NCBI GenBank assembly: GCA_040902285.1
Contig: JBBDXP010000007.1
Coordinates: forward strand, 1,042 to 65,041
Direction: 5' to 3'
DNA from: Candidatus Spechtbacterales bacterium
GTDB lineage: Bacteria; Patescibacteriota; Minisyncoccia; Spechtbacterales; 2-12-FULL-38-22
DNA: 64,000 bases
The position numbers and the translations under genes were made by a program. Below the pieces are notes generated by a model. It saw only the letters and a list, made by a program, of their open reading frames with translations. It was not told where the DNA came from and searched no databases. This document shows, in pieces, positions 8,747-51,158 of the stretch; the stretch's first letter is position 1; every line of letters starts with the position of its first letter.

Positions 8747-10909
8747 ATGACAGCTAAAAACAAAACAAAAGCACACGGGGACATTGAAGAAATAAAAAAC
8801 TTTTTTGCGAATAAGGATGATAAAGAGCTGATACAAAAGGCCTTCGAAAAAGCGCTTAGCGCGCATGAAGGGCAAAAAAGAGAATCGGGAGAAGCTTATA
8901 TAATACACCCTCTTTACGCCGCGCAAACTTTGGCCGAACTAAAAATGGACGCGCAAACCATAGCGGCCGCGCTTCTGCACGATGTTGTGGACGACACCCA
9001 CGTAACCCTAGACGATATAGAAAAAGAATTCGGAAAAGACATATCCTTTTTGGTATCGGGGGTAAGCAAACTTGGAAAATTGAAATACCGCGGAGTTGAA
9101 AGACATGCTGAAAATTTAAGGAAAATGATGGTAGCCATGGCTGAAGATGTAAGGGTCATACTTATTAAATTTGCGGACCGGCTGCACAATATGAAAACGC
9201 TTAACGCGCTACCTGAAAGAAAAAGAAAAAGGATAGCTCTTGAGACCCTGGAAATCTACGCGCCGATAGCAATAAGATTGGGAGTGGCGGATATTGGAAA
9301 AAAACTTGAAGACCTGGCTTTTCCGTATGTATACCCGGATAAATACGACTATGTAAAAAAAGAAAGCGGCAAAAGGTTGCTGAAGGCCGAGGATTATCTA
9401 AAAAGATTATCGCCCAAATTAAAACGGGAACTCGCGCGTGAAAACATCAAGCCGCTAAAAATAGAAATGCGAACTAAGCACCTATACAGTTTGTGGGTAA
9501 AACTGGAAAAAGATAACTATAATTGGGACCAAATAATGGATTTGATGGCCGTAAGAATAATAGTGGATTCGGTTGAAGAGTGCTACAAAACTTTGGGAAT
9601 AATCCACAAACTCTGGCACCCGGTACCCGGAAGAATAAAAGATTATATAGCTCTTCCGAAACCAAACGGCTACCAAAGTTTGCACACGACAGTTTTTTGC
9701 ATAGATGGAAAAAGAACCGAGTTTCAAATAAGGACGCTAAAAATGCACGAAAATGCCGAGTATGGAATAGCGGCGCACTGGAGATATAAGGCAGATGAAA
9801 AACAGTCCGATAAAAGATTAAATAAAACTTACGGCTGGGTGCGCCAGCTTCAAGAATGGAAAAAAGATACATCTCCAAGCGATGAGTTTTTGAATAGTTT
9901 AAAAATAGACGTGTTCAATGATCGCATATTCGTGTTTACTCCTTCCGGCGATGTTATAGATTTGCCGGCGGGAGCCACCCCCATAGATTTCGCTTACAAC
10001 ATACATTCTGATGTGGGCGATAAATGCTCAGCCGCGATACGAAACGGCAAGATGATATCCTTGGGAACAGAATTGCATAACGGAGATGTTTTGGAGATAT
10101 TAACTTCCAAAAACAAGACCCCCTCGCAAGCATGGCTACATTTTGCAAAAACAAGAAGCGCGCGGGCGCATATAAAAAAATGGTTTCATAGCCAGAACAG
10201 AGAACAGCATGTGGAAGCCGGCTTAAGTATGCTCAATGAGGAATTGGAATCCATAGAAGGTAAAAATTGGGACGGGCTTCAAGAAAAAACACGCCGCAAA
10301 ACCTTGGAAAGATTCTCTATGCACAACGCCGAATCACTCTTTGCGGCCATAGGCAGAGGGGATATTTCCATAACAAGAATAACAAATAGTTTGCTTGAAG
10401 AAGCACCGCAGCGGAAAAAGGTTGCTCCCAAAACTTCAAAAAAAACCTCGGTGAAATCGGTTTCTATAGCGGGAGTAAGCGGTTTGAAAATGCGCATGGC
10501 ACAATGTTGCAGCCCCGCCTACCCCGAAAGCATAGTGGCATACATAACTGTAGATAAAGGCGCCAGCATACACAAAACCGCATGCCCGAATATTCACGAA
10601 AAAACATGGGCGGAAAAAATATTGCCCGCTTACTGGAGTAGTGCTGAAAGAAATTATAGTATTCCTCTGACAATAAAAACAACCAACAGGGTTGGTATGC
10701 TTCAAGACATAAGTAAAATTATTGCGGATTTTAACGCGAATATAGTATCTATAAACGCCGGGGTAAATAAAAATAAAACCTCATCCGCAAAAGACGGAGA
10801 GGTTGAGATAAAAGCGGATATAGAAATTGAAGATATTCAGCTTCTAAGAAAAATTATAGAAAAAATAAAAATGACCGACGGGGTCGTGGAAATAAAAAGG
10901 CGCGTTTAG
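8747..10909 (+). CDS. rel: bifunctional (p)ppGpp synthetase/hydrolase Rel
   Basis: An HD hydrolase domain (IIHPL...HDVVDDT) is followed by a RelA/SpoT synthetase domain, a TGS domain and a C-terminal ACT-like domain. Total length is 720 aa. Confidence 0.9.
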   Translation: MTAKNKTKAHGDIEEIKNFFANKDDKELIQKAFEKALSAHEGQKRESGEAYIIHPLYAAQTLAELKMDAQTIAAALLHDVVDDTHVTLDDIEKEFGKDISFLVSGVSKLGKLKYRGVERHAENLRKMMVAMAEDVRVILIKFADRLHNMKTLNALPERKRKRIALETLEIYAPIAIRLGVADIGKKLEDLAFPYVYPDKYDYVKKESGKRLLKAEDYLKRLSPKLKRELARENIKPLKIEMRTKHLYSLWVKLEKDNYNWDQIMDLMAVRIIVDSVEECYKTLGIIHKLWHPVPGRIKDYIALPKPNGYQSLHTTVFCIDGKRTEFQIRTLKMHENAEYGIAAHWRYKADEKQSDKRLNKTYGWVRQLQEWKKDTSPSDEFLNSLKIDVFNDRIFVFTPSGDVIDLPAGATPIDFAYNIHSDVGDKCSAAIRNGKMISLGTELHNGDVLEILTSKNKTPSQAWLHFAKTRSARAHIKKWFHSQNREQHVEAGLSMLNEELESIEGKNWDGLQEKTRRKTLERFSMHNAESLFAAIGRGDISITRITNSLLEEAPQRKKVAPKTSKKTSVKSVSIAGVSGLKMRMAQCCSPAYPESIVAYITVDKGASIHKTACPNIHEKTWAEKILPAYWSSAERNYSIPLTIKTTNRVGMLQDISKIIADFNANIVSINAGVNKNKTSSAKDGEVEIKADIEIEDIQLLRKIIEKIKMTDGVVEIKRRV

Positions 10910-11775
10910 TCCAGCAAACTTTCTATCCAGCGGCGAAGATCGTTTTTGGACGAAAAATGAACCGCGAGATTTGCTCTTTTATCCGTTGTTCTGGCTTTGG
11001 CATCCAGCACTTCAAAAGTTTCCTTGAACCTTCGTAAAAGCTCTGCCATTTCGTTATCTTTCATGCTTCTTGATCCGACTGCCGCGGGTTCTTTTTTCGG
11101 TTTCAATTCCCTGGCCCTCTCTTCCGCCTGCCTTACCGTATAATTACTTGCCAATATTTCTCCAAATAATTTTTCTTGTGCGCCTTGTTCCAAACTCAGA
11201 AGAGGCCGCGTGTGGCCTTCTGATATTTCTCCTCGCTTTAAAGCATCCGTTATACTTGAGGGCAAAGATAAAATTCTAATGGTATTTGCGACATAAGGGA
11301 CAGACCTGGACACTCTGTTTGCGATCTCGCTTTGCTTCATGCCGAATTCTTCCTGGAGTTTTTTAAACGCCTCCGCCTCTTCAACAGCGTTTAAATCGTT
11401 TCTTTGTATGTTTTCTATGAGAGAAACTTCCAGTTTTTGCTTATCTGTTGAATGTCTTATTATAGCCGGCACCCTCGGCAATTTAGCCATTTTGGCGGCA
11501 CGCAATCTTCTTTCTCCGGCTATCAGTTCGTAATCCACTTCCCTGCCTTCCGGCACGTATCTTTCCACCTTGCTTACGATTAAGGGCTGTAAAATCCCGT
11601 AAACTTTAATCGAGTCAGCAAGGTCTTTTAAAGCGTTGAGATCAAATTCGCGCCGCGGCTGGTACGGGTTCGGCTTTATTTGTTCAACATCTATAAGAAA
11701 CACGCTCTCTTTTTTGTCTATTTCGGAGCGTTCTTCGGGTTTTCTTTGTGGTATTAATGATTCTAATCCGCGCAT
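10906..11775 (-). CDS. parB: chromosome partitioning protein ParB
   Basis: GERRLRAAKMAKLPRVPAI is the ParB box. An HTH region is also present. Confidence 0.88.
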   Translation of the reverse strand: MRGLESLIPQRKPEERSEIDKKESVFLIDVEQIKPNPYQPRREFDLNALKDLADSIKVYGILQPLIVSKVERYVPEGREVDYELIAGERRLRAAKMAKLPRVPAIIRHSTDKQKLEVSLIENIQRNDLNAVEEAEAFKKLQEEFGMKQSEIANRVSRSVPYVANTIRILSLPSSITDALKRGEISEGHTRPLLSLEQGAQEKLFGEILASNYTVRQAEERARELKPKKEPAAVGSRSMKDNEMAELLRRFKETFEVLDAKARTTDKRANLAVHFSSKNDLRRWIESLLD

Positions 11776-11785
11776 TTTTTTATTT

Positions 11786-12553
11786 TTAAAAAGAATTTAT
11801 TCTTTGTATTGTTTCTTTTGCCAGTTTTCGGTATGCTTCGGCGCCGGTTGAATACGGATCATATTGGTAAATTGATTTTCCGTATCCTGGAGCTTCCGCC
11901 AAAGATATGTTTCTGGGTATCACAGAATCAAAAACATATCCGGGAAAATTATCTTTTACATTTTTGAGCACATTTCTGCTCAATTTATTTCTTTTATCGT
12001 ACATGGTACACACCGCCCCCAAAATTTCAATATTCCTGCCCAGATTGTCTCTTATTAAGTATACAGTATTTAATAGTTGTCCCAAACCTTCCAGCGCGTA
12101 GTATTCGCATTGAACCGGAGTTAGAATATAATCGGCGGCAACAAGGCCATTAAGCGTGAGAAGACCCAAACTGGGCGGACAATCTATAATAACAAAATCG
12201 TAGTTGTGTTTGACCTGTGCTATGCTGTCCAACAACCTGTATTCCCGCTCTTTTTGGGAAACGAGCTCTATGTGCGCCCCCGACAAATCCGGATTGGAAG
12301 GCAAAATATCAAGAGAAAAAAGCCCGGTCGCGTGTATGGTATCACCAGCCAATACGCCGCCAATTAGTGTATGATACACGTTTGTAGACAGATTGCCGGG
12401 AGAACGGAAAGTCGAAGTTGCGTTGGCCTGCGGATCCATGTCCACAATCAATACTTTTTTGCCGTATGCAGCCAAATACACGGCCAAATTTACAGCCGTA
12501 GTGGTTTTACCGGTTCCTCCTTTTTGGTTGGCTATGGTTATAGCTACTCCCAT
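11786..12553 (-). CDS. parA: chromosome partitioning ATPase ParA/Soj
   Basis: MGVAITIANQKGGTGKTTTAVNLA is a deviant Walker A. The start was trimmed from the 327-aa track ORF to this Met. A plausible TTGTCA-N16-TAAGAT promoter lies just upstream on the minus strand. Confidence 0.88.
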   Translation of the reverse strand: MGVAITIANQKGGTGKTTTAVNLAVYLAAYGKKVLIVDMDPQANATSTFRSPGNLSTNVYHTLIGGVLAGDTIHATGLFSLDILPSNPDLSGAHIELVSQKEREYRLLDSIAQVKHNYDFVIIDCPPSLGLLTLNGLVAADYILTPVQCEYYALEGLGQLLNTVYLIRDNLGRNIEILGAVCTMYDKRNKLSRNVLKNVKDNFPGYVFDSVIPRNISLAEAPGYGKSIYQYDPYSTGAEAYRKLAKETIQRINSF

Positions 12554-12743
12554 ATGGCTAAATCTTACCACAAATGGGCCGATTGACAAATGAATACACG
12601 ATGCTATGTTGGGAATATGAAACATGCCCGGGTGGGTGAAATTGCGAGCAGTGCGCAGCAAGTTCACGGGTTCAAAAGAACCCCGGACCACCACCCGGAA
12701 CAGTTTTTTGTCTAAGTCCTGCGGAGCAGGACGAGAAATATAT

Positions 12744-12830
12744 GCCCGGGTGGTGGAACTGGCAGACACGCTGGACTCAAAATCCAGTGGTAGAAATACC
12801 GTGGAGGTTCAACTCCTCTCCCGGGCACCA
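12744..12830 (+). tRNA. tRNA-Leu (anticodon CAA), type II with long variable arm, CCA encoded
   Basis: The acceptor stem GCCCGGG pairs with CCCGGGC. The anticodon loop is CTCAAAA and the variable arm is long. The T-arm is GGTTCAACTCC and the sequence ends ACCA. Confidence 0.85.
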
Positions 12831-12869
12831 TTTAAGAAATTAAAATTTAATAAAAAAATATTTTAAATC

Positions 12870-13733
12870 ATGCAAAATTTGAACAAAGCAATAATTGATT
12901 TTATTTTGCCGTGGCTTCTGGAACACGGCATCCGTATAGCCATTATAGTGGTTGGTCTTTGGATAGCGCATAAATTCGCGGAGGCAATACTAAGCAAGAC
13001 CATAAGAAAAATGGTCAAAACAGACAGGTTTGCAAGCGAAGAAGAAGAAATAAAAAGAGAGGACACGATTATAAATATAATGGTTATATCTATACATGTG
13101 GCCATATGGGTCCTTGGCGGACTTATGATTCTGTCCGAAATAGGAATAAATATAACCCCGCTAATAGCCGCGGCCGGAATAGGAGGCCTTGCTTTCGGTT
13201 TTGGAGGACAATATCTTATAAGCGACCTTATAAGCGGTTTGTTTATAATACTTGAAAACCAATACAGGATTGGGGATGTGGTATGTTTTGACAAGACATG
13301 CGGATTGGTGGAAAAGATAACGCTTCGCAGAACAATTCTCAGGGACTTAGACGGCACAGTACACAATGTACCCAATGGCCAAATAAAGACCGCTTCCAAT
13401 CTGTCTCATGAATACGCCCGTGTAAACTTGAACATAGGGGTTGATTATTCAACAAATTTGGAAAAAGTAATAAAAGTAATAAACAGAGTTGGTAATGAAC
13501 TGACCGAAGATAAGAATTGGAAAGAAGACATAATAAAAACACCTCAATTTCTTCGGGTTGATGAGTTTGCGGATTCAGCGATAGTAATTAAAATACTCGG
13601 AGAAACAAAACCTCTCAGACAATGGGATGTAACCGGCGAATTAAGAAAACGGCTTAAGATCGCTTTTGATAACGAAGGTATTGTAATACCCTTCAATCAG
13701 CTTGTTTTGCATAAAGCTCCGGAGAACGGCTAG
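12870..13733 (+). CDS. mscS: small-conductance mechanosensitive channel (MscS family)
   Basis: It has N-terminal TM helices and the MscS beta-domain segment GDVVCFDKTCGLVEKITLRRTILRDLDGTVHNVPNGQI. Confidence 0.8.
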   Translation: MQNLNKAIIDFILPWLLEHGIRIAIIVVGLWIAHKFAEAILSKTIRKMVKTDRFASEEEEIKREDTIINIMVISIHVAIWVLGGLMILSEIGINITPLIAAAGIGGLAFGFGGQYLISDLISGLFIILENQYRIGDVVCFDKTCGLVEKITLRRTILRDLDGTVHNVPNGQIKTASNLSHEYARVNLNIGVDYSTNLEKVIKVINRVGNELTEDKNWKEDIIKTPQFLRVDEFADSAIVIKILGETKPLRQWDVTGELRKRLKIAFDNEGIVIPFNQLVLHKAPENG

Positions 13734-13736
13734 AAT

Positions 13737-14975
13737 CTAAGAACCTTCGGGCACTGATCCGGCGGTTTCTTTGGCAATTTCCATGGGATCGATTTCCATC
13801 GGATCTTCTTTCATTAAAATAAATCCCAAAGAAAGAAATCCTGCCATTAAAAACACTATTGCCAAGTTGTCGGTAAACAAAAACACTAAAGCTAAAAATA
13901 AAAGAAAGACCCCGCGGGAAACATTTAAAGCTATCTCGCGCACTATTACGAGCCGGTCCCGGGTCGTTTTATATTTTCCGGCCCAGTCATAAAATATGGC
14001 GGCAAAAGGTATAAAGGCGGAATACGAACCGAAATTATGCAAAGTGTGAGCCAAAAAAGCATCGAAGGGTGTTCGTACAAACATTTTTATGGGCCAGAAA
14101 ACGGCGTTCAGAATGGATCCTATGGTCAGCAATTTCTCCGGCCCCATTTTATCCGATGCCTTGCCTATGAAGTATATAAATATCATTCCTATTACAAGAG
14201 CGGAAGAAATAATGGCGCCCAATTCTTCAAAACTTATTGCCAGCATAAAAAGATATAGAGGCCATATATAAGCATGGACGGCAAATTCCGCGCCCGCAAA
14301 CCCGAGAGCTGCAACTTTCGCCCTCCTGTTCTTTTTTAAAGTTTCTCTAAAGGCCTGCGTGAAATCATCCGGGTATTCTTCTTTTATTTCTTGGGATAAA
14401 AACAATGGTATTGTGGACGCAAATAATAAGGCAAGAACAATGGCGAAAAGTTCCGGAAATCCAAAAAATGTTATTACTAACCCCCCAACAAGCGGTCCAA
14501 AGGCCGAGGCAAGTGAAATAACGATATTGGCAACTCCCACTTCCTTGCCGCGCTTACCTTGTTCGGAAAATCTGGCAAAATCAATATGGAAAGCCGGCCA
14601 GTAGAGCAGGTTATGCATGACATGAAACGGAATAAGTATCAGAAAAAAGATACCTAATTTTTCTATTTGCCAAAGAGCCAGAAAATATAAAAACAGAAAC
14701 GGAACACTCCAGAGCATTGCGTGTTTTATGCCTAGCCGTGTGAGCATTTTTCCTCCAAAAGGCGCAAGCACACCGAACAAAATGGATACAATCGCAAAAT
14801 AAAGAAGAGTTAATGGAATAGATCTGTCAAAAAAAAGGAAGATATATATTGGTTCGAATATACCTACTAAAGAAATTGCAAACCCCCGTATAGCAGTAGA
14901 AGCATATAATTCTCCAAGTTCTTTATTGAAATGCGGCGATAGCCGGGCAAGATGCCCGTGCGTTAATAAAGCCAT
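13737..14975 (-). CDS. MFS-type transporter
   Basis: A 412-aa polytopic membrane protein with about 12 predicted TM helices and MFS-like loop motifs. Confidence 0.55.
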   Translation of the reverse strand: MALLTHGHLARLSPHFNKELGELYASTAIRGFAISLVGIFEPIYIFLFFDRSIPLTLLYFAIVSILFGVLAPFGGKMLTRLGIKHAMLWSVPFLFLYFLALWQIEKLGIFFLILIPFHVMHNLLYWPAFHIDFARFSEQGKRGKEVGVANIVISLASAFGPLVGGLVITFFGFPELFAIVLALLFASTIPLFLSQEIKEEYPDDFTQAFRETLKKNRRAKVAALGFAGAEFAVHAYIWPLYLFMLAISFEELGAIISSALVIGMIFIYFIGKASDKMGPEKLLTIGSILNAVFWPIKMFVRTPFDAFLAHTLHNFGSYSAFIPFAAIFYDWAGKYKTTRDRLVIVREIALNVSRGVFLLFLALVFLFTDNLAIVFLMAGFLSLGFILMKEDPMEIDPMEIAKETAGSVPEGS

Positions 14976-19223: not shown

Positions 19224-21683
19224 TTAGATAACCAGATTAACGACTTTGTTTTTGACCGCTATAGTTTTTTTAGGTTTTTTATCTCCCAAAATTTCCTTTA
19301 TTCTTTCGCTTTCCAAAGCGCTTTTAATTAAACGGCCTTCTTCCGTGTTGTTTTCCACTTCGATTTGAGCCCGTAGTTTTCCATTAATCTGCACGGGCAC
19401 GGTTATAATTTCCTGCTTCGTAATTTTTGCGTCAAACTCAGGCCAGACAGCATCGTGCACGCTTCCTTTTTGGCCTAAGCGTTCCCATAGTTCCTCTGTA
19501 ATATGCGGAGCGAAAGGCGCCAGCAAAACAAGCAGAGTTTCTATATCTTCGGGCGAGTGTTCATTTTCATAAAGCGCGTTCACATATGCCATCATAGCGG
19601 CAATAGCGGTGTTGTAATGCAAGCGTTCAATATCTTCCGTTACTTTTTTTATTGTCTGATGTTTTATCTTTTGTAAATTCTGTTTTGAGTTTGTCTCTTG
19701 CCTGCCTGCCGAAGCCTCTGCGGAGGCAGGTTGCTTGCCTGCCTGCCCCGTACTGGACTTGTCCTGGTACGGGGTTGTTTGTCTCTGAACGAGCCCCCAT
19801 ACTCTTCCTAAAAATCTATGAACTCCGCGTATGCCTTCGTCCTGCCAATCTCCCCCTTCGGCTAAAGGACTTAAAAACATAAGGTATGTGCGAAGAGTAT
19901 CGGCGCCAAATGCTTCAAAAAGCTCATCGGGATTCACAATATTTCCTTTAGATTTGCTTATTTTTGACCCTTCTTTTACCAGAAGGCCATGCGCCCTAAA
20001 TTTCTTAAAGGGCTCTTCGAAATTAAGAAGTTTTTGATCGCGCATAAACATAGTTATAAAGCGTGCATACATTAAATGAAGCACGGCATGTTCCTGGCCT
20101 CCAATATACATATCCACCGGCAGCCATCTTTCGGTTATTTTTTTATCCCATGCTATATTTTTTTCTCCGGAACTGGGATAGCGCAAAAAATACCATGAAG
20201 AATCCAGAAAAGTGTCCGAAACATCCGTTTCTCTTTTTGCCCTGCCCGCGCACTTGGGGCATTTTACATTTACAAATTCTTCAACGGCGGCAAGCGGAGA
20301 TTTATCGGTGCCTGTCGGCTGGAAATTTTCCACATAAGGCAGCAGCACGGGCAAATCCTTTTCGGCTACGGGTACCGTGCCGCAATTGTCGCAATATATT
20401 ATGGGTATTGGAGGCCCCCAATAGCGTTGGCGCGATATGAGCCAATCACGCAAATGATAGTTTACCTGAGGAATACCGCCTACGCTTTTTCCAATTTTTT
20501 CCCTAGCTTCTGATGAGGATATGCCATTGAATTTTTCCGAACCAACCAGATGGCCTTCTCCTTCATACGCTTTTTCCAAGACCGGGCATATTTTTTCCGG
20601 ATAATTCTGGCATATTACCTGTTTTGAAGGCAAGCCGTATTTTTTCGCAAATTCAAAATCTCTCTGGTCATGCGCGGGAACCGCCATTACAGCACCTGTT
20701 CCATATTCAGCTACAACATAATCCGATATCCAAACCGGTATTTCTTCTTTATTGGCGGGATTTATGGCGCTGATACCCTTCAGCTCAATCCCCGTTTTTT
20801 CATTGTTCTTGGTCTGTTTTTTGCTTTCGGATTTGTTTATATATGTTTCAATCTCTTTTTTATTGGTGATTGGTAATTGGGAAATTAGTTCATGTTTTGG
20901 GGACAACACAATATATGTCGCTCCGAACAAAGTATCCGCTCGTGTTGTGAAGATTTCGATTGAAAATTGAGAATTGAAAATTGGAAATTTTATACGGTAC
21001 CCCGTGCTTTTGCCTATCCAGTTGCGTTGCGCGATCTTTGTGTGTTCGGACCAGTCAATATTTTTAAGATTTTCCAATAATCTGTCCGCATAATCGGTTA
21101 TTTTTAAAAACCATTGGTTTAAATTTTTGCTTTCAACAACCGAATCGCATCTTTCACATCTTCCCGATATCACCTGCTCGTTAGCGAGAACGGTTTTACA
21201 ACTCGGGCACCACTGAACGGGAGCTTCTTTTTTGTACGCAAGACCTGCTTCGTAGAATTTTAAAAAAATCCACTGGGTCCACTTATAATATTCCGGATCA
21301 GTGGTGTTTATTATGTTATCCCAGGAATAGATGTTCCCGATGTATTCCAATTGTCTTCGAAAATTATCCGTACTTTTCTTTATTAGTTCCCTTGGGTGTA
21401 TGCCTTTTTTTAGAGCAAAATTTTCGGAATGAATCCCGAACGCGTCAAATCCTATTGGTTCAAAAACATCGTATCCTTTCTGCCGCATATAGCGTCCGTG
21501 TATATCCGAACCCACAAACGCGTAAAGATTGCCTATATGCAAGCCCTCCGCCGAAGGATAGGGAAACATCATTAGGTTATAATAGGGCTTTTTGTCCCCT
21601 TTTATATCAACCTGCCACCTCGCGTCGCGTATCCATTTTTCCCGCCACTTTTTCTCTATTTTTTGCGGATTATATTGTTCCAT
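19224..21683 (-). CDS. leuS: leucyl-tRNA synthetase carrying an in-frame GC-rich repeat insertion
   Basis: HIGNLYAFVGSDIHGRYMRQKGYDVFEPIGFDAFG is the HIGH region and a KMSKS-like SKSKGN is present. The low-complexity insert STGQAGKQPASAEASAGRQETNSKQ is encoded by the repeat at 19690-19790. Confidence 0.9.
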   Translation of the reverse strand: MEQYNPQKIEKKWREKWIRDARWQVDIKGDKKPYYNLMMFPYPSAEGLHIGNLYAFVGSDIHGRYMRQKGYDVFEPIGFDAFGIHSENFALKKGIHPRELIKKSTDNFRRQLEYIGNIYSWDNIINTTDPEYYKWTQWIFLKFYEAGLAYKKEAPVQWCPSCKTVLANEQVISGRCERCDSVVESKNLNQWFLKITDYADRLLENLKNIDWSEHTKIAQRNWIGKSTGYRIKFPIFNSQFSIEIFTTRADTLFGATYIVLSPKHELISQLPITNKKEIETYINKSESKKQTKNNEKTGIELKGISAINPANKEEIPVWISDYVVAEYGTGAVMAVPAHDQRDFEFAKKYGLPSKQVICQNYPEKICPVLEKAYEGEGHLVGSEKFNGISSSEAREKIGKSVGGIPQVNYHLRDWLISRQRYWGPPIPIIYCDNCGTVPVAEKDLPVLLPYVENFQPTGTDKSPLAAVEEFVNVKCPKCAGRAKRETDVSDTFLDSSWYFLRYPSSGEKNIAWDKKITERWLPVDMYIGGQEHAVLHLMYARFITMFMRDQKLLNFEEPFKKFRAHGLLVKEGSKISKSKGNIVNPDELFEAFGADTLRTYLMFLSPLAEGGDWQDEGIRGVHRFLGRVWGLVQRQTTPYQDKSSTGQAGKQPASAEASAGRQETNSKQNLQKIKHQTIKKVTEDIERLHYNTAIAAMMAYVNALYENEHSPEDIETLLVLLAPFAPHITEELWERLGQKGSVHDAVWPEFDAKITKQEIITVPVQINGKLRAQIEVENNTEEGRLIKSALESERIKEILGDKKPKKTIAVKNKVVNLVI
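19690..19790. repeat. GC-rich palindromic CCTGCC/GGCAGG element, copy A (two hairpin units), in frame inside leuS
   Basis: TTTGTCTCTTGCCTGCCTGCCGAAGCCTCTGCGGAGGCAGG + TTGCTTGCCTGCCTGCCCCGTACTGGACTTGTCCTGGTACGGGG + TTGTTTGTCTCTG. It is flanked by a TTTGTCTCT direct repeat. GC is much higher than the surrounding AT-rich coding sequence. Confidence 0.55.
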
Positions 21684-35908: not shown

Positions 35909-38900
35909 TTATTTTTTTATTATGCCTATTTTCATGTTGCCTCTGCCGTAATCTTCCGCTGCCCAGGGAAATTCCGCGGTTGCGTCATATTTTTTGCCGT
36001 CTAAACTATATTCCATTATCTTGGATGTGTTTGTATCTGAAATTATCCTGCTTTCCATTTTATACAAAGTTCCGCGCAACTGTTCCGGTAAAGAATAATG
36101 CACTATTATTTTTTTATCGGGCTTTAGGCCTAAAGATTTTCTTAATTTTTGTATGTGCCTTATAATTTCTCGCACCTGTCCCTCGAGCACTAAATCGGGA
36201 GATAAAACCGTTTTTAGCGCTGTGTTTCCGGCGTTAGTTTTTTCATATGCCCAATCTTTTTTATTTTTTATATTTGGCGATAAAACAATCTCTCTTACAT
36301 TCAGTTCTTCTTTTAGAAGAACTTGGTATTGTTTTTCCATACCTTTGGGCACGGCAAAAGATTCCAGGGGCTGACGAACTTTTATGGAATTTTCGGCTCT
36401 TAATTTTAATCCTGTTCCGGCCAGCTCTCTTACAAGTTCCATTTTATCCAACGCGCTCTTTTCCGCCTTTGATAATTTTTTGTAAACCGGAAATTTTTCC
36501 CAATGCACGCTCTTTGAATCGTCCGCGTTTACTTCCTGCCAAATATGTTCGGAAAGAAACGGGATAAAAGAGGCCGACATCTTGGATGTTTCGCCTAAAA
36601 CAAATGCCAATGTTCCGGCGGCGTCTTTAAGCGAATTTTTATCTTCGGGCCTCTGTAATCTTTCGCGGGAACGCCTTATGTACCAATTTGAAAGGTCTTC
36701 CACAACAAAATTATCCAACCCACGAGCCGCGTCAAGCACATTATACGCATCCATATTGCCGGCTGTTTTTTCTCCAAGTTCCCTTAAGCGCAACAGTATC
36801 CATTTGTCCAAAATATGTTTTGAATTTATTTTATTAATCAATTTGGGCGCTTTTTGCTTTGGCGCGTATGTTTTGAGAAAAACAAGAGAATTGTACAGTG
36901 TGGAAATAAATTTCTGCATGCGCTCCCGGACATCTTTTTCACTGAAGCGTTTAACAAACCCGGGACCGTTAACCGTAAAAAAGTACCATCGGACAGAATC
37001 CATTCCGTATTTTTCGGCCAAATAAAAAGGATCTACTATATTACCTTTGCTTTTAGACATTTTTTGGCCTCTTTCGTCCAAAACATGTCCTAAAGATATA
37101 ACATTTTTATAAGATGGCGCCTTTCCAAGAACCGCCGAAACGGCAAGCATTGTATAAAACCATCCCCTTGTCTGATCCACAGCTTCGGCTATATAATCGG
37201 CCGGATATATTTTTCCTTTTTCCAAATTTCTTTTATTTTCAAAAGGATAATGCGCCTGCGCAAAAGGCATCGCGCCCGAATCAAACCACACATCGGCCAA
37301 ATCCTCCACCCTGCGCATTACGCCGTTTTCGGAATTGCAAGCGGTACAAGGAAAATTTATAGCGTCTATATACGGCCTGTGAAAATCCAATTCTCCGAAC
37401 TTGTTGTAAGGAAACTTGCTGTATTTTATTTTACGCAGCCGGCCCACAAGCGGATAATTCTTGCTCCTTCTTGCAAATGCTTCTTTGGTTGTAAGACCCA
37501 AAAGCGCGCTTTCCAATAGCCATAAAGGGTCTCCATGGCTAATTATCAATATCTTTTTATTTTTATATTTGTTTTCCAGTTCGTTCGCGACTTTCAGCAT
37601 GCGCGCCTGAACGCTTATAAGGTTTTCGCCTTTCGGCGGAGCTTTGGTAAACCTTTCTTCGGTAGAAGAAAAAATGCCAAGATAATCCTTTTCAGAGTGG
37701 CCTTCAAAAATTCCTACGCTCACATCGACAAGGCGTTGATCATAAATAACTTTTTTTCCAAGCTCTTTTGCCACAATTTCCGCAGTTTGACGAGTGCGGG
37801 TTAGTGGAGATGCAACGATAATATCAACGCCGCCCAGTTTTTTAAGCTCCTTTGTCGCGCGCCTTATATCATTTATGCCCTTTGGGATTAGGCCATATTT
37901 GAGCCCCTTTTCGGGATATCTGCTTGCCAGTATGTTTTTAACGTTTCTTTCCGACATGCCATGCCTTAAAAAATAGTATTTATTCGCGCTCTTTGTCATT
38001 TTTGCTATATCCGCGCGCGAACCTATAACTTCTGTGTGTGCGCATTCGGCGCATTTCCATATGGGAAGAGGGGTGCCCCAATATCGGGAGCGTGAAAAAG
38101 CCCAATCCTTAACATCGCGCAGCCACTCCCCGAATCGCCCCTGCTTTATATATTCGGGAAACCAATTTATTTTTTCATTTGCCGCAAGCAGCGTTTTTTT
38201 AAGGTCGCCCATGCGCACAAACCATGATTGCATCGCGTAGTAAAGAAGAGGCGTGCCGCATCTCCAGCAAAAAGGATACGAGTGTTTGTAAGGAGAGGAT
38301 TTGTATAACAAATCTTTCGTTTTCAAATAATCTATTATTCCGGTCTCGGCGTTTTTTACGAATTGTCCCTTAAAATCTTTTACCCTGTCTGTAAAAAGGC
38401 CGTTTTCATCTACGGTGTGAATTTTTGGAAGGTCGAACTTTTCAGCCAATTTATAGTCGTCTTCTCCATACATAACGGCCGTGTGCACGATACCCGTACC
38501 GTCTTCCGTGCTGACAAAATCCGCATTCACAACTATGTGCTTGTTTACCGAATCAACGTCCTTAAGAGAATCGAACAGTGGCTCGTACTCAATATTCATG
38601 GCGGACAGTTCTTTTCCAGATATCTCCTTTACAAGCTCGTACTTTCCGTTCAAAACGCTCAGCAAATCTTTTGCCAAAATGTAATATTCATTCCCCTGCT
38701 TTGCTATAACATAAGTTATTTTAGAACCCACTGCCAAAGCCACATTTCCGGGCAATGTCCAGGGAGTTGTTGTCCAGGCCAAAAGATATGTCTTTGCCTT
38801 AAAATTATAAGAGGACGGATTTTTAACCCTGAATTTTACAAAAACCGATTCTTCCACAATGTCTTTATACCCCTGCGCCACCTCGTGAGAAGAAAGTCCC

Positions 38901-41635: not shown

Positions 41636-41986
41636 GGGAGCGGCTTACGCGGCTTCGATAAGTTCTTATTAGTATAAATTGCAGATCGAGTGCGCCTGAA
41701 TCTCGCAAAACTTCGGGCAACCCTTTAAGTGCAAACAAACAACCAGCACTTGCTTACGCATAAATTCCGTAAGCCATCGCACTAAATGATTCCTGATAGT
41801 TTAGATGCGGTGTCATTCATCAGGATAGCCAAACGCTCGTCCGCGCGTTCGGTGAAAATTAGGGCTAGGATATTACGGTGTTTTGTTTATTTTTTAGCCG
41901 TTTTATCCGAACAATAAAAATAAACTATATCTGTAGACATTTATGCCGATACGGCTTACACAGGGGTTCGAATCCCCTCGCTTCCA
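41636..41986 (+). ncRNA. ssrA: tmRNA (ssrA), ~351 nt
   Basis: The 5' GGGAGCG pairs with the 3' CGCUUCC, including a G3:U70 alanine identity pair. The T-arm is GGGGTTCGAATCCCC, then discriminator A. The internal tag ORF GCA AAC AAA CAA CCA GCA CTT GCT TAC GCA TAA encodes ANKQPALAYA* at 41731-41763. It is located immediately after smpB. Confidence 0.8.
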
Positions 41987-42014
41987 CATTAGTGTTAAAA
42001 ATTTAAGTTAAAAT

Positions 42015-48900: not shown

Positions 48901-50247
48901 CTAAAGATATAATTTACTGAACTCTTCCCTTGCTACCTGCCTGTCATCCCACGGCACAGGCCCCTTAGCGGTCATCATTAAGGGCTCCGCACCCTTTCCG
49001 GTTATAATTACATTATCGCCTTCTTTGGCTTTTTTCAATGCTTCTCTTATTGCCTGTCGCCGATCTAAGATTTTTTCGTAGTTTATTTCTTGTTTCTTGT
49101 CTGCCTGCCGAAGCCCTGTCCGTCCGGCAGGCGGGCTCGGCGCAGATAGGTATCTTGTGTCTTCAGAAAGTCCCGATTCAATATCCTTTAGAATACTTTC
49201 GGGATTTTCTGTGTAGGGATCTTCGTCCGTTAAAATTATTTCATCGCAATGTTCGCTTGCGATTTCTCCAAGCTTGGGTCTTTTCCATTTGTCCCTGCCT
49301 CCGCCTGCGGCTCCCAGAACGCATATAGTTCTTCCACCCTTTTTTTGCCGTAATTGCTCCGATACCGTGTTGTAAACTTTCTCCAAAGCATCGGGTGTAT
49401 GGGCATAATCAACAACAACATTAAATGGCTCGCCTATAACTACTTCAGCTCTGCCCGGCACGCCCGGAAAGCTTGATAATATATCGGCCATTTTATCCAT
49501 GGGTATTCCCTGCGCTCTGCCTGCGCCTATCGCGGCTAAAACATTATACGCGTTAAATTTCCCGAGAATGGGAATTGAAAATTTATTATCCCTTATATAA
49601 AAATTTATGCCCCTGTCCTCCAGTTTTAATTTTTCGGCAAGTATTTCCTCTGTGCCAAGTGAAGCACTGCCGGGATTGAGCGTATATCCAATTTTTTCAA
49701 TAGCCGGAAATTGCAGGAAATAATTGGCATTTTCATCGTCCAAGTTTACCACGGAAGCCCTGTGGCGCAAAGAAAAGAATTTGCCTTTCGCGTTTTTGTA
49801 ATTTTCAAAAGAACCGTGGCTCTCTATATGTTCGGGGGTCAAATTAGTAAATACGGCGGTATCAAATTCAATAAATTTATGTCTGTTTTGCCTAACGCCC
49901 TCGCTTGTAACTTCTATTACCGCGAACTGGCAACCGGCATCCGCCGCCTTGCGCAAAAACAGATGCAGTTTCATCCTTCCCGGCATTGTCATTTTAAGCT
50001 TGTTGGGCCATTCTTCGTTGCCTATTTTAAATCGCAGCGAAGAAATAGAAGCAGTTTTATAACCGGCGTTTTCCAGCAAATAAGAACAAAGATGTGCTAC
50101 GCTTGTTTTGCCGTTAGTGCCAGTGATACCGATAACTTTTATTTCTTTTGAAGGGTGTCCGTAAAGAAAAGCGCCCAAAGCGGGCCATGCGGAATGATAC
50201 GCTTCCAATACTGAAGGTGGGATAAATTTTTTGATTAGTTCTTTCAC
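48901..50247 (-). CDS. murE: UDP-N-acetylmuramoyl-tripeptide ligase MurE, probably L-Lys-adding type, with an in-frame GC-rich repeat insertion
   Basis: GITGTNGKT is the P-loop. TNLTPEHIESHGSFENYKNAK is the Mur central domain. LGAAGGGRDKWKRPKLG...ILTDEDPYTENP occupies the place of the DNPR motif. The C-terminal GKGAE motif is present. The insert LSAPSPPAGRTGLRQADKKQ sits near the C-terminus. Confidence 0.75.
   Translation of the reverse strand: MKELIKKFIPPSVLEAYHSAWPALGAFLYGHPSKEIKVIGITGTNGKTSVAHLCSYLLENAGYKTASISSLRFKIGNEEWPNKLKMTMPGRMKLHLFLRKAADAGCQFAVIEVTSEGVRQNRHKFIEFDTAVFTNLTPEHIESHGSFENYKNAKGKFFSLRHRASVVNLDDENANYFLQFPAIEKIGYTLNPGSASLGTEEILAEKLKLEDRGINFYIRDNKFSIPILGKFNAYNVLAAIGAGRAQGIPMDKMADILSSFPGVPGRAEVVIGEPFNVVVDYAHTPDALEKVYNTVSEQLRQKKGGRTICVLGAAGGGRDKWKRPKLGEIASEHCDEIILTDEDPYTENPESILKDIESGLSEDTRYLSAPSPPAGRTGLRQADKKQEINYEKILDRRQAIREALKKAKEGDNVIITGKGAEPLMMTAKGPVPWDDRQVAREEFSKLYL
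49095..49146. repeat. GC-rich palindromic element, copy B, in frame in murE
   Basis: TCTTGTCTGCCTGCCGAAGCCCTGTCCGTCCGGCAGGCGGGCTCGGCGCAG is near-identical to copy C. Confidence 0.55.
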
Positions 50248-51158
50248 AGGATATTTTTTATTCTATATAAAATATACCAAAAACGGCTAATAGGAAGATC
50301 GAAACTGCCCAAGTATTTTACTTCTTTTCCACCGAAACCTTTTTTAAAACGAGTTAAGCCGGGCCATTTTTTTTCATTAATTCCCCAAAGGTCATAATAC
50401 CCCAGAGATTCTCTTTTTGCATCTCGGATTATTTTCCAGTGCATAAGATAAGGCGCCATATGCTTTCTTAATTTGTAATCGGACGCTCCATGCAAATATG
50501 TGGCTGTGTTTCCGGCAAATACGACTATCGCGGCGGATGCGAGCTTGCCGTCTTTATACGCGATATATAGGCGCGCAATATCCATATCCAAAAGCTTTTT
50601 GTAATAATCTTTTGTATGCGTACTGAATTTATCGCGAAGTGCTGTGTCCAAAATCAACGACCACCACATATTAAAATCGGTCTGTTTATTTTTTGATAAA
50701 ACCGCTTCAACTCCCCGTTTTTGGGCCACGCGCAAATTGTATCTGGTCTTTTGTCCCATTTGCCCAAGAAGCTTTTCTTCGCTTTCTTTAAGATCTAAAA
50801 CTATGGTTTTCTGCGGCTGGAGTTCTTTGCTCGATTTAACAAAACCAAGCCGGCTTAATCCTTGTCTCTTGCCTGCCTGCCGAAGCCCTGCCCGTCCGGC
50901 AGGCGGGCTCGGCGCAGGCAGGTTGTTTGTTGCTTGTTGTTGTACAAGTGGCTCCCACTTAAAAAATATCGCGCCCTCAGCGCGTCCGATATTTTTTATT
51001 TCCTCCAAATATTCAAGCGCGTCGGGATAATTGGAATACAGATAACTTTTTCCCAAAGGAACATCCAGCTTAATCATGTACCCCGCGCCTAAATCAAAAC
51101 TCTTGCGCCCGGTGCTTTCCTGAAATTTTCTCCATTGTGGCAAGTTAAGAAAACTCAT
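50244..51158 (-). CDS. FemAB-family peptidoglycan interpeptide-bridge aminoacyltransferase (putative) with an in-frame GC-rich repeat insertion
   Basis: Length and composition fit FemX/FemAB GNAT-fold transferases. It is adjacent to the Lys-type murE. The insert NNLPAPSPPAGRAGLRQAGKRQ is encoded by repeat copy C. Confidence 0.5.
   Translation of the reverse strand: MSFLNLPQWRKFQESTGRKSFDLGAGYMIKLDVPLGKSYLYSNYPDALEYLEEIKNIGRAEGAIFFKWEPLVQQQATNNLPAPSPPAGRAGLRQAGKRQGLSRLGFVKSSKELQPQKTIVLDLKESEEKLLGQMGQKTRYNLRVAQKRGVEAVLSKNKQTDFNMWWSLILDTALRDKFSTHTKDYYKKLLDMDIARLYIAYKDGKLASAAIVVFAGNTATYLHGASDYKLRKHMAPYLMHWKIIRDAKRESLGYYDLWGINEKKWPGLTRFKKGFGGKEVKYLGSFDLPISRFWYILYRIKNIL
50862..50945. repeat. GC-rich palindromic element, copy C, in frame in the femAB-like gene
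   Basis: CTTGTCTCTTGCCTGCCTGCCGAAGCCCTGCCCGTCCGGCAGGCGGGCTCGGCGCAGGCAGG followed by a TTGTTTGTTGCTTGTTGTTG tail. The arms are inverted repeats (CTGCCTGCCGAAGCCC.../...GGGCTCGGCGCAGGCAG). Confidence 0.55.

What the first reader, a model, noticed from the sequence alone, without database searches (positions are those of the whole stretch)
19690..19790. Copy A of the GC-rich element in leuS: two tandem hairpin units flanked by a 9-bp direct repeat (possible target-site duplication)
Inside leuS the element appears as two units: TTGTCTCTTGCCTGCCTGCCGAAGCCTCTGCGGAGGCAGG and TTGCTTGCCTGCCTGCCCCGTACTGGACTTGTCCTGGTACGGGG. Each forms its own hairpin (GCCTCTGCGGAGGC; CCCCGTAC...GTACGGGG). The block is bracketed by TTTGTCTCT at 19690-19698 and 19779-19787. 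A flanking direct repeat is what a transposition or target-primed insertion event would leave. Alternatively TTGTCTCT is simply the conserved 5' end of each unit, since it also starts copies B and C. Either way leuS stays in frame and carries a low-complexity QAGKQPASAEASAGRQ insert.
Basis: seen in the sequence. Interest (0 to 1): 0.6.

Follow-up and report, generated by a model that had tools for sequence, protein, structure and literature searches.

The report
In-frame GC hairpin repeat in leuS
A short GC-rich palindromic repeat, found in three genes of this candidate-phyla-radiation bacterium and in near-identical form in many other phyla, sits in frame in a disordered loop of the essential leucyl-tRNA synthetase, and its flanking direct repeat belongs to the repeat itself and is not a transposition footprint.

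Summary
leuS (window 19224-21683, minus strand) carries two tandem GC-rich hairpin units, in frame. They are bracketed by a direct repeat that is really 10 bp, GTTTGTCTCT, at 19689-19698 and 19777-19786.

The target-site-duplication reading is not supported:
- The repeats lie 88 nt apart, and removing one copy plus the intervening DNA frameshifts leuS.
- The flank sequences (TTGTCTCTTG on the left, TTGTTTGT on the right) also flank copies B and C in two other genes.
- The closest orthologue (74% identity) has no copy of the repeat.
- The repeat alone is only modestly above chance (2.3% of shuffles).

The block is one copy of a dispersed, stop-free palindromic element, CCTGCCTGCC...GGCAGGCAGG. 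A 19-mer scan found it in about 50 copies in MAGs of more than ten phyla. Most of those that lie in genes are antisense and in frame, and many sit in register inside tandem heptamer arrays (NNNNTTG). The same LeuS linker carries different hairpin-plus-heptamer inserts in other CPR lineages. AlphaFold models the encoded residues 638-664 as a disordered loop.

It is closest to intragenic REPs and Rickettsia palindromic elements, but it lacks their tags and sizes, and no transposase was found. How it moves is unknown. I rate it a new variant of a known kind, of moderate interest.

The parts
19224..21683 (-). leuS (leucine--tRNA ligase, 819 aa), the host gene of copy A
   Evidence: ORF. Pfam tRNA-synt_1, editing and anticodon-binding domains. 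100% match to a Candidatus Spechtbacterales MAG protein.
19687..19700 (+). Left flank of copy A: heptamer-like units GAGTTTG and TCTCTTG. It contains the left copy of the 10-bp direct repeat (19689-19698).
   Evidence: TTGTCTCTTG also precedes the hairpin in copy C, and TTGTTTCTTG precedes it in copy B.
19701..19730 (+). Hairpin 1, CCTGCCTGCCGAAGCCTCTGCGGAGGCAGG (30 nt, exactly 10 codons, P652-R661). It differs at two positions from the cross-phylum consensus.
   Evidence: Fold. Consensus.
19731..19737 (+). Spacer heptamer TTGCTTG between the two hairpin units
19738..19774 (+). Unit 2: the left-arm motif CCTGCCTGCC fused to a different hairpin, CCCCGTAC..GTACGGGG (19746-19774). There is no GGCAGGCAGG right arm.
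   Evidence: With the following T-rich tract it scores as terminator-like on the + strand, antisense to leuS. It is unique among all loci fetched.
19775..19788 (+). Right flank of copy A: TTGTTTG and TCTCTGA. It contains the right copy of the 10-bp direct repeat (19777-19786).
   Evidence: TTGTTTGT also follows the hairpin of copy C.
49086..49164 (+). Copy B, in frame in a MurE-type Mur ligase (48901-50247, minus strand): TTTCTTG x2, a 51-nt nested hairpin (49100-49150), then TATCTTG and TGTCTTC
   Evidence: It is a 22-aa insertion absent from the 59 closest orthologues.
50865..50943 (+). Copy C, in frame in a FemAB-family gene (50244-51158, minus strand): TCTCTTG, a 51-nt nested hairpin (50872-50922), then TTGTTTG, TTGCTTG and TTGTTGT
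   Evidence: The orthologue L081 is shorter by 17 codons (51 nt) at this site.

Best explanation
Copy A is a composite copy (two tandem units) of a small, non-coding, GC-rich palindromic repeat. The repeat has colonised a permissive loop of leuS and is translated as part of the protein.

The family core is a bulged hairpin built on CCTGCCTGCC...GGCAGGCAGG. It has no stop codon in any of the six frames. It is usually flanked on both sides by short T-rich direct repeats of period 7 (NNNNTTG on the hairpin's motif strand, CAANNNN on the coding strand).

It is not duplicated host DNA.

Shown here:
- The element is a dispersed repeat.
- It is an insertion relative to orthologues.
- It keeps the reading frame.
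- It lies in a linker modelled as disordered.
- The same linker has been hit independently in other lineages.
- Inside genes it lies almost always antisense.
- Hairpins nest into each other's loop apex and stand in tandem, without junction duplications.

Inferred, not shown:
- Copies spread by a hairpin-dependent (single-strand or template-switch) copy-and-paste process. Either a trans-acting enzyme encoded elsewhere catalyses this, or microhomology between arms and flanks does.
- Copies survive only where they are in frame, stop-free and structurally harmless.
- The orientation bias is purifying selection against stop codons and against a hairpin-plus-U-tract terminator in the sense strand.
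- The element has no benefit for LeuS.
For: Repeat family in the window:
- The 13-mer TTGCCTGCCTGCC (up to 2 mismatches) matches 7 times against 1.1 expected, 5 of them at the four units.
- A and C share 26 identical nt. B and C share 81 nt at 85%.

Insertion status:
- A is +26 codons against the syntenic 74% orthologue.
- B is +22 aa against 59 orthologues.
- C is +17 codons against L081.

The flank is part of the element:
-.
- A metagenome scan found TCTCTTG|hairpin|TCTCTTG x3 inside pheS of an unrelated organism. E. coli PheS has only DTTR at that position (from memory).
- TGATTTG flanks the hairpin at two loci of one MAG. AAGTTTGGGTGTTGAAG does so at two loci of another.

Register of the flanks: the left heptamer matches the right flank at 6 of 7 or better in 13, 12 and 5 of 59 copies at offsets 0, 7 and 14, and in at most 2 copies at any other offset tested.

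No simple target-site duplication: the 88-nt spacing means excision gives a stop at codon 643.

Cross-phylum family: 67 loci match a 19-mer where I estimated about 9 by chance, and about 50 of them carry the full hairpin with a conserved 2-nt bulge.

Orientation: 21 copies lie only in an antisense ORF and 4 only in a sense ORF. The coding-side strand always has an open frame; the motif strand has none in 13 of 59.

Hot spot: four other CPR LeuS carry different hairpins with different heptamers in the same linker. The MurE loop shows the same pattern.

Tolerance: residues 638-664 have pLDDT below 50 and form a coil between helices 618-636 and 659-686. The region aligns with a linker of comparable length in T. 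thermophilus LeuS.

Precedent: intragenic REPs and RPEs are documented (PMC3733652, PMC1779305, PMC2229807).
Against: - No transposase, reverse transcriptase or integrase lies in about 42 kb around the three copies.
- No protein family recurs near copies in other genomes.
- No phage or plasmid carries the hairpin. The means of movement and of cross-phylum spread are therefore unidentified.
- No relative close enough (more than 74% LeuS identity) exists in the databases searched to give a true empty site.
- For copy C the net length difference from the orthologue equals the hairpin alone (51 nt). There the T-rich flanks could be host linker rather than imported sequence.
- The TTG before the hairpin was imposed by my search pattern. 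It is not universal; TTC and ATC are also seen.
- Unit 2 has a left arm but no matching right arm, and its hairpin was found nowhere else.
Confidence: 0.7

Rival explanations
1. Transposition or target-primed insertion left a 9-10-bp target-site duplication. A two-hairpin element inserted into a single host TTTGTCTCT and duplicated it.
For: An exact 10-bp direct repeat brackets the block. The 9-mer occurs nowhere else in 64 kb. In several other genomes the heptamers abutting the hairpin on the left and right are identical, which is what a 7-bp duplication would look like.
Against: - The 88-nt spacing breaks the frame of an essential gene on insertion or excision.
- The flank sequences recur at copies B and C in other genes.
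- The same heptamer occurs at different loci of one genome, and arrays have up to 3-4 copies on one side.
- The orthologue has no copy of the repeat.
- Nested copies have no duplication.
- A repeat this long arises in 2.3% of shuffles of this T-rich stretch.
Confidence: 0.07
2. Local origin without mobility. Low-complexity linker DNA expanded by replication slippage (heptamer tracts), and GC-rich quasi-palindromes arose and were perfected in place by intrastrand template switching. The resemblance between copies would then be convergence or local gene conversion.
For: - The inserts sit in linkers that vary in length and are low-complexity in many lineages.
- Heptamer tracts without a hairpin exist in coding DNA, at window 20959-20989.
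- B and C lie only 1772 nt apart in adjacent genes.
- For copy C the flanks match the orthologue's linker in length.
Against: - 26-81 nt of near-identity between copies in three unrelated genes cannot be convergence.
- The same 30-mer, with the same bulge and loop, is present in more than ten phyla.
- Identical composite (nested) structures in B and C imply copying of a finished unit.
Confidence: 0.1
3. A selected functional module. Options: (a) a terminator or processing signal for antisense transcripts within genes and for sense transcripts between genes; (b) a binding site for a conserved DNA- or RNA-binding protein or for a DNA-uptake system; (c) a useful flexible loop in the proteins.
For: - Unit 2 plus its T-rich tail scores as terminator-like on the strand antisense to leuS.
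- One copy lies about 30 nt downstream of a tRNA gene in terminator orientation (L050).
- The strong conservation of a bulged hairpin across phyla suggests recognition by a protein.
- There is an orientation bias.
Against: - Intergenic copies show no consistent orientation towards upstream genes: 3 sense, 4 antisense, 4 both.
- The host proteins are unrelated (LeuS, MurE, FemAB, PheS, IleS, HsdM, SAH hydrolase).
- Most orthologues lack any insert.
- Density in the window is low, 3 loci in 64 kb.
- The encoded peptide changes with reading frame.
Confidence: 0.08
4. An assembly or sequencing artefact, such as a chimeric join or adapter-derived sequence.
For: The source is a metagenome-assembled genome. 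The flank TGTCTCTT resembles part of the Nextera/Tn5 mosaic-end sequence (from memory).
Against: - The same LeuS protein, insert included, is encoded on the Logan assembly of run SRR27977660, which may derive from the same reads as the MAG.
- The reading frame is kept in three genes.
- Related copies occur in MAGs from many studies and assemblers, including 3-6.5 Mb contigs (L035, L049).
- The element sits at orthologous positions in two related species (L054 and L060).
Confidence: 0.01

Closest known systems
Rickettsia palindromic elements (RPE; Ogata et al. 2000; PMC1779305, PMC2229807)
   Same: Palindromic selfish repeats found both between genes and in frame inside conserved, even essential, genes, aminoacyl-tRNA synthetases among them (RPE-7 in pheT). 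They are translated and tolerated. Different families proliferate in different lineages.
   Different: RPEs are 100-150 bp and limited to Rickettsiales. This core is 21-51 nt and GC-rich in an AT-rich genome. It has period-7 direct-repeat flanks, nests into its own loop, and occurs almost unchanged in many phyla. There is no sequence similarity.
REPs, including intragenic GTAG- and CGTC-tagged REPs, and their RAYT transposases (PMC3733652, PMC2817692)
   Same: A 20-40-nt imperfect palindrome with a conserved bulge or asymmetry. It occurs as singles, dimers and clusters. Intragenic units encode 20-30 aa when dimeric or grouped. No target-site duplication is evident.
   Different: There is no GTAG or CGTC tag at the foot of the stem. 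No RAYT was seen. In this window all copies are intragenic rather than extragenic. Tandem units are head-to-tail rather than the predominant inverted dimers. REP families are not known to carry heptamer arrays.
MITEs (Correia/NEMIS, ERIC, RUP, Nezha and others; PMC2229807, PMC10969869)
   Same: Non-autonomous, with terminal inverted repeats, and sometimes fused in frame to ORFs.
   Different: Classical MITEs are over 100 bp and AT-rich, carry TA or other target-site duplications, and match the ends of a known IS. None of this is seen here.
Mobile GC clusters and hairpin elements of organelle genomes: yeast mitochondrial GC clusters and double-hairpin elements (both from memory), and sponge RHEs (PMC2800124)
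   Same: Short GC-rich hairpins scattered in an AT-rich genome. They are sometimes in frame inside protein genes, nest and cluster, and have no identified enzyme.
   Different: Those are organellar, with unrelated sequences. This comparison is an analogy only.
IS200/IS605-type single-strand transposition (hairpin ends, no duplication, insertion next to a short target)
   Same: A bulged hairpin as the recognisable feature, junctions without duplication, and a short motif (often TTG) abutting the hairpin.
   Different: No TnpA or TnpB was found nearby. There is one hairpin rather than distinct left and right ends. The TTG is not universal. This is a mechanistic lead only.

Membership tests
Classical MITE | Terminal inverted repeats | tested here: met
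   The CCTGCCTGCC / GGCAGGCAGG arms in unit 1, B, C and about 50 other copies. Unit 2 lacks the right arm.
Classical MITE | Target-site duplication of host sequence at each copy | tested here: not met
   The flanks are shared between copies in different genes. The 88-nt spacing is incompatible with the reading frame. Nested copies lack duplications.
Classical MITE | A parent IS with the same ends and a transposase | tested here: inconclusive
   None in about 42 kb around the copies or near 70 related loci. Whole genomes were not searched.
REP (GTAG/CGTC super-families) | A 20-40-bp imperfect palindrome | tested here: met
   Cores of 21-37 nt, or 51 nt when nested, with a conserved 2-nt bulge.
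REP (GTAG/CGTC super-families) | An unpaired GTAG or CGTC tag at one end of the stem | tested here: not met
   The consensus has neither tag at the foot. GTAG appears only as an internal variant of GCAG inside the right arm. Criterion taken from PMC3733652.
REP (GTAG/CGTC super-families) | An associated RAYT (Y1 transposase) gene | tested here: inconclusive
   Not found in the window context or in neighbouring ORFs of related loci. The rest of the genome was not available.
REP (GTAG/CGTC super-families) | Mostly extragenic, downstream of genes, in high copy number | tested here: not met
   In the window all 3 loci are intragenic. Across related loci about 44 of 59 lie in ORFs. Copy number per genome is not testable here.
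Rickettsia palindromic elements | In-frame insertion into conserved protein genes at structurally permissive sites | tested here: met
   LeuS, MurE and FemAB. Disordered loop in the AlphaFold model.
Rickettsia palindromic elements | A 100-150-bp unit with RPE family sequence, in Rickettsiales | tested here: not met
   The units are 30-51 nt, the host is Patescibacteria, and there is no Rfam or other match.
IS200/IS605-like single-strand elements | Insertion 3' of a fixed tetra- or pentanucleotide without duplication | tested here: inconclusive
   TTG abuts many hairpins, but my pattern forced this. Unforced examples show TTG, TCG, TTC and ATC. No duplication is seen at nested junctions.
Intrinsic terminator | A GC-rich stem-loop followed by a T tract at the 3' end of a transcription unit | tested here: not met
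   Unit 2 scores as terminator-like, but on the antisense strand inside an ORF. Unit 1 was not reported by the terminator scan.

The most novel reading that the evidence does not exclude
The CCTGCC hairpin with its heptamer arrays could be an undescribed class of very small mobile module. In this reading it moves without target duplication by invading hairpin apices and heptamer tracts, through single-strand or template-switch copying. It has spread across more than ten bacterial phyla and repeatedly remodels the same permissive loops of essential enzymes such as LeuS, MurE, PheS and IleS in streamlined CPR genomes.
Probability: 0.3. Interest if true: 0.65.

Novelty: new variant of a known kind. 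Interest (0 to 1): 0.45.

Why it matters
In-frame palindromic repeats in essential genes are known from Rickettsia and from some REP-rich bacteria. I found no paper describing them for Patescibacteria in the library searched, nor one containing this hairpin's arm sequences in a bacterial-repeat context, or its encoded peptides.

If the family is truly mobile, it gives a tractable case of how selfish DNA reshapes surface loops of core enzymes in minimal genomes. It would also be a simple sequence marker (the 30-mer) for tracing horizontal spread between uncultivated phyla.

There are practical consequences:
- These inserts lengthen proteins and create low-complexity peptides such as LPAPRLRQAGK, ASAEASAGRQ and QETRDKR. 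Such peptides could confuse homology searches and domain annotation.
- The heptamer tracts could in principle be slippage-prone sites inside essential genes (inference).

Tried and rejected
- Rfam, gathering thresholds on the window and on 18 related loci, plus permissive mode on 19600-19880: only tRNA and tmRNA, with nothing credible at the element.
- IMG/VR scan with the 19-mer: 0 hits.
- BLAST of the 33-mer against PLSDB plasmids and INPHARED phages: only partial chance matches, or none.
- All-against-all clustering of 974 ORFs from the related loci, looking for a recurrent neighbouring enzyme: only housekeeping families recur, and no transposase-like family was seen among the clusters inspected by eye.
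- Literature searches for the arm sequences, the encoded peptides, and MITE or palindrome terms with CPR: no description of this element.
- Strand on which the hairpin is selected, from G.T-compatible against A.C changes in the right arm: 16 against 4, but 12 of the 16 are at one hypervariable position next to the bulge. Without that position the count is 4 against 4, so the result is inconclusive.
- A true empty site: the nearest LeuS in 5.8 billion proteins is 74% identical, so none is available.
- Unit 2's hairpin as a separate family: no other copy in any fetched locus.
- Integron attC (R''/R' core sites), CRISPR repeat, DNA-uptake sequence, frameshift-stimulating heptamer plus hairpin, and SMRTbell or Nextera adapter contamination: considered by inspection and rejected, because the defining motifs, periodic arrays, density or context are absent.
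Full report
**What is there**

The window comes from a Candidatus Spechtbacterales (Patescibacteria/CPR) metagenome-assembled genome. Its LeuS is 100% identical to an NCBI MAG protein on a 123.7-kb contig. leuS occupies 19224-21683 on the minus strand, is 819 aa long, and has all the expected Pfam domains.

On the plus strand, positions 19687-19788 read as follows:

| Positions | Sequence | Part |
|---|---|---|
| 19687-19700 | GAGTTTG TCTCTTG | left flank |
| 19701-19730 | CCTGCCTGCCGAAGCCTCTGCGGAGGCAGG | hairpin 1 |
| 19731-19737 | TTGCTTG | spacer heptamer |
| 19738-19774 | CCTGCCTGCCCCGTACTGGACTTGTCCTGGTACGGGG | unit 2 |
| 19775-19788 | TTGTTTG TCTCTGA | right flank |

- Both hairpins fold strongly on either strand (z about -4.5; 0 of 200 shuffles as stable).
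- The direct repeat is 10 bp, GTTTGTCTCT, at 19689-19698 and 19777-19786.
- A 14-nt repeat, CTTGCCTGCCTGCC, starts both units.
- In dinucleotide shuffles of 19660-19820, a repeat of 10 nt or more appears in 2.3% of trials. A 14-nt repeat never appears.
- The same LeuS protein, insert included, is encoded on a Logan assembly of run SRR27977660, so an assembly artefact is unlikely.

**It is an insertion, and it is translated**

- The nearest LeuS in the protein collection is 74% identical, and its locus is syntenic (TatD-leuS-glmS).
- A codon alignment shows 26 extra codons in the window, between the conserved GLVQ and SKQNL. The orthologue reads CAA AAA TTC GAA GTT AAA AAT at that place and has no TTTGTCTCT.
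- Hairpin 1 is exactly ten codons, P652-R661.
- The ORF stays open, so the element is read through as TTPYQDKSSTGQAGKQPASAEASAGRQETN.
- An AlphaFold model built on 50 orthologues has mean pLDDT 83. Residues 638-664 fall below pLDDT 50 and form a coil between helices 618-636 and 659-686 of the anticodon-binding domain. These are precisely the element-encoded residues.
- T. thermophilus LeuS has a linker of comparable length at this place.

**It is one copy of a repeat family**

- Copy B (49086-49164) lies in frame in a MurE-type ligase. Copy C (50865-50943) lies in frame in the adjacent FemAB-family gene. Both are on the same strand as A.
- A and C share 26 identical bases, TTGTCTCTTGCCTGCCTGCCGAAGCC. 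B and C share 81 nt at 85%.
- B and C carry a 21-nt second hairpin nested in the loop of the first.
- B is a 22-aa insertion absent from the 59 closest orthologues.
- C makes the protein 17 codons (51 nt, the length of its hairpin) longer than a Spechtbacterales orthologue.
- No other copy was found in the window.

**Why the direct repeat is not a target-site duplication**

1. The two copies are 88 nt apart. Deleting one copy plus the intervening DNA produces a stop at codon 643 of an essential gene. A clean insertion of that block would have done the reverse damage.
2. Eight of the nine bases of the left repeat lie within TTGTCTCTTG. That sequence also abuts the hairpin in C, and B has TTGTTTCTTG. 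The first bases of the right flank, TTGTTTGT, also follow the hairpin of C. The flanks therefore travel with the element into different genes.
3. A metagenome scan for TTGTCTCTTGCCTGCCTGCC found three contigs from other organisms, with a shorter hairpin flanked on both sides by TCTCTTG-type (T/C-rich) heptamers. One lies in frame in pheS, arranged as TCTCTTG | hairpin | TCTCTTG x3 and encoding QETRDKRPASPAGRQET. E. coli PheS has only DTTR between the same conserved motifs (from memory).
4. The orthologue has no copy of the repeat. At 74% identity it is not a strict empty site.

**The wider family**

- A scan of 185,579 species genomes with TTGYCTGCCTGCCGAAGCC gave 67 loci, where I estimated roughly 9 by chance.
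- About 50 of them carry the complete hairpin CCTGCCTGCCGAAGCC-TCGGCGCAGGCAGG, with the same loop and the same 2-nt bulge in the right arm.
- The hosts include Patescibacteria (Kaiser-, Doudna-, Zambryskii-, Saccharibacteria and Parcubacteria), Bacteroidota, Ignavibacteriales, Chlorobiota, Verrucomicrobiota, Lentisphaerae, Gammaproteobacteria, Desulfobacterales, Elusimicrobia, Omnitrophica and others. Some copies lie on 3-Mb and 6.5-Mb contigs.

Across 59 hairpins, four features stand out.

(a) Heptamer arrays.
- In AT-rich hosts the hairpin sits in register inside a tandem heptamer array.
- The heptamer abutting the left side matches the right flank at 6 of 7 or better in 13 copies at offset 0, 12 at offset 7 and 5 at offset 14. 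At other offsets essentially none match.
- The heptamers differ between genomes (ACCTTTG, ACTCTTG, CACTTTG, GATTTTG, TCTCTTG and others).
- The same heptamer accompanies the hairpin at different loci of one genome: TGATTTG in L043 and L045, and AAGTTTGGGTGTTGAAG in L019 and L036.

(b) Palindrome context in GC-rich hosts. There the hairpin stands alone, lies at the apex of a larger palindrome, or lies inside a repeat of roughly 80-180 nt. L040 is an example of a lone copy: exactly 33 nt, encoding LPTPRLRQAGK inside SAH hydrolase.

(c) Nesting.
- Nested hairpins always sit between GAAGC and CTCGG of the loop.
- They are 21, 27 or 33 nt long and show no junction duplication.

(d) Orientation in genes.
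- The coding strand is nearly always the complement of the motif strand. 21 copies lie only in an antisense ORF and 4 only in a sense ORF.
- The ambiguous Verrucomicrobial cases turned out to be hsdM, read as LPAPGLRQAGK.
- The complement strand always keeps at least one frame open. The motif strand has none in 13 of 59.

The TTG in front of the hairpin was forced by my pattern and is not universal.

**The leuS linker is a hot spot**

Other CPR LeuS proteins have inserts at the same linker. For four of them I read the DNA.

| Locus | Sequence at the linker |
|---|---|
| L077 (Wildermuthbacteria) | GATTTTG \| CCCGCCTCGCCTCGAGTCGAGGCTGGG \| GATTTTG x3 |
| L078 | ATTTTTG ATTTTG \| TCCGCCAGCTGGCGGA \| TTGAGCTTTGGCTTTTG |
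| L079, L080 | Comparable: a GC-rich imperfect palindrome flanked by short T-rich direct repeats |

- Each has a different GC hairpin flanked by different heptamers.
- The MurE loop that hosts copy B likewise carries heptamer-type peptides (IPNSKFQIPNS, KIKNLKLNKNLKLKIKN) or other hairpin peptides in other lineages.
- So the architecture is generic, and insertion, or at least survival, is recurrent at permissive loops.

**How it probably works**

Shown:
- It is a dispersed, stop-free, bulged palindromic repeat.
- It is inserted in frame in loops that vary between orthologues; the leuS site is modelled as disordered.
- It stands in tandem and nests, without junction duplications.
- It is biased in orientation.

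Inferred:
- It is a non-autonomous selfish element of the REP/RPE kind.
- It is copied by a hairpin-dependent process. This could be single-strand transposition by an enzyme encoded elsewhere, or template switching helped by the shared arms and heptamer microhomology.
- Selection then filters the copies. Copies with stop codons, out of frame, or presenting a hairpin plus U-tract in the sense transcript are lost. Unit 2 does score as terminator-like on the antisense strand.
- Arrays of heptamers may arise from duplication of [heptamer + hairpin] units, as seen in copy A and L020, followed by slippage loss of hairpins. This is conjecture.

No enzyme was found:
- There are only housekeeping genes in about 42 kb around the copies.
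- No protein family recurs near the copies in other genomes.
- No phage or plasmid carries the hairpin.

**Comparison with known systems**

- The closest are intragenic REPs and Rickettsia palindromic elements. Both are documented inside conserved genes, including aminoacyl-tRNA synthetases, with dimers or groups encoding 20-30 aa (PMC3733652, PMC1779305, PMC2229807).
- This element fails the defining tags of REP super-families (GTAG/CGTC), the size and taxon of RPEs, and the target-site-duplication and parent-IS criteria of MITEs.
- Rfam has no family for it.
- I found no paper describing the hairpin, and none containing its peptides.
- I therefore file it as a new variant of a known kind, not as a member of any named family.

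**Verdict**

- The target-site-duplication interpretation is not supported.
- Interest is moderate. The leuS copy itself is an ordinary case of tolerated selfish DNA.
- The cross-phylum identity of the hairpin, its heptamer arrays and its apex-nesting remain unexplained and deserve a genome-wide census.

Noticed in passing
window 20959-20989 (inside leuS, editing domain): A tandem heptamer array, ATTGAAA x4.4 on the + strand, with no hairpin. It encodes FPIFNSQFSIE. Many CPR LeuS orthologues have the same style of peptide (ISNFKFQI, ISNSQFSI, IPNSKLQI) at this position without any length difference. It may be a conserved beta-hairpin whose codons happen to give period 7, or a heptamer tract that has overwritten the segment.
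   Followed up: partly
window 49086-49164 and 50865-50943: Copies B and C share the same nested two-hairpin composite (85% over 81 nt). They lie 1772 nt apart in adjacent genes (murE-type ligase and femAB-type). This suggests copying of a finished composite over a short distance.
   Followed up: partly
window 35909-39436 (minus strand): A 1175-aa class I tRNA synthetase (IleS-like) whose product also hits the histidine phosphatase family His_Phos_1, an unusual fusion or insertion (gene call, ORF).
   Followed up: no
LeuS homologues P0042, P0053, P0057, P0064, P0070, P0071, P0099, P0108: Several CPR LeuS proteins are 940-1007 aa long and carry an extra NUDIX (PF00293) or alpha/beta-hydrolase (PF12697/PF00561) domain.
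   Followed up: no
L022 and L035 (Verrucomicrobiota hsdM): The type I restriction-modification methylase HsdM carries the canonical hairpin in frame (RGDLPAPGLRQAGK). In L022 a GIY-YIG-like segment follows it within the same ORF.
   Followed up: no
L039 (Saccharibacteria IleS): The protein has the canonical hairpin insert (CLPSPRLRQAGK). Elsewhere it also has a heptamer-style peptide, NFQFPISNFQTNYKLQISNS, with no hairpin peptide adjoining it in the translation (DNA not read).
   Followed up: no
L011/L033, L023/L027, L025: In Gammaproteobacteria, Lentisphaerae and Doudnabacteria MAGs, a CCTGCC-type palindrome (the canonical hairpin in L011/L033 and L023/L027, a short variant in L025) is embedded in longer repeats (roughly 80-180 nt aligned in the first two pairs) present in 2-3 copies per locus set. 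In L023/L027 it lies at the centre of a larger palindrome.
   Followed up: partly
window about 10000-14000: GC skew and gene orientation switch sign here, next to parA/parB and relA. Cumulative skew peaks at about 12-14 kb.
   Followed up: no
window 41636-41989 and 12744-12827: A tmRNA gene (126.9 bits) lies close to smpB. A tRNA gene was the only other Rfam hit.
   Followed up: no
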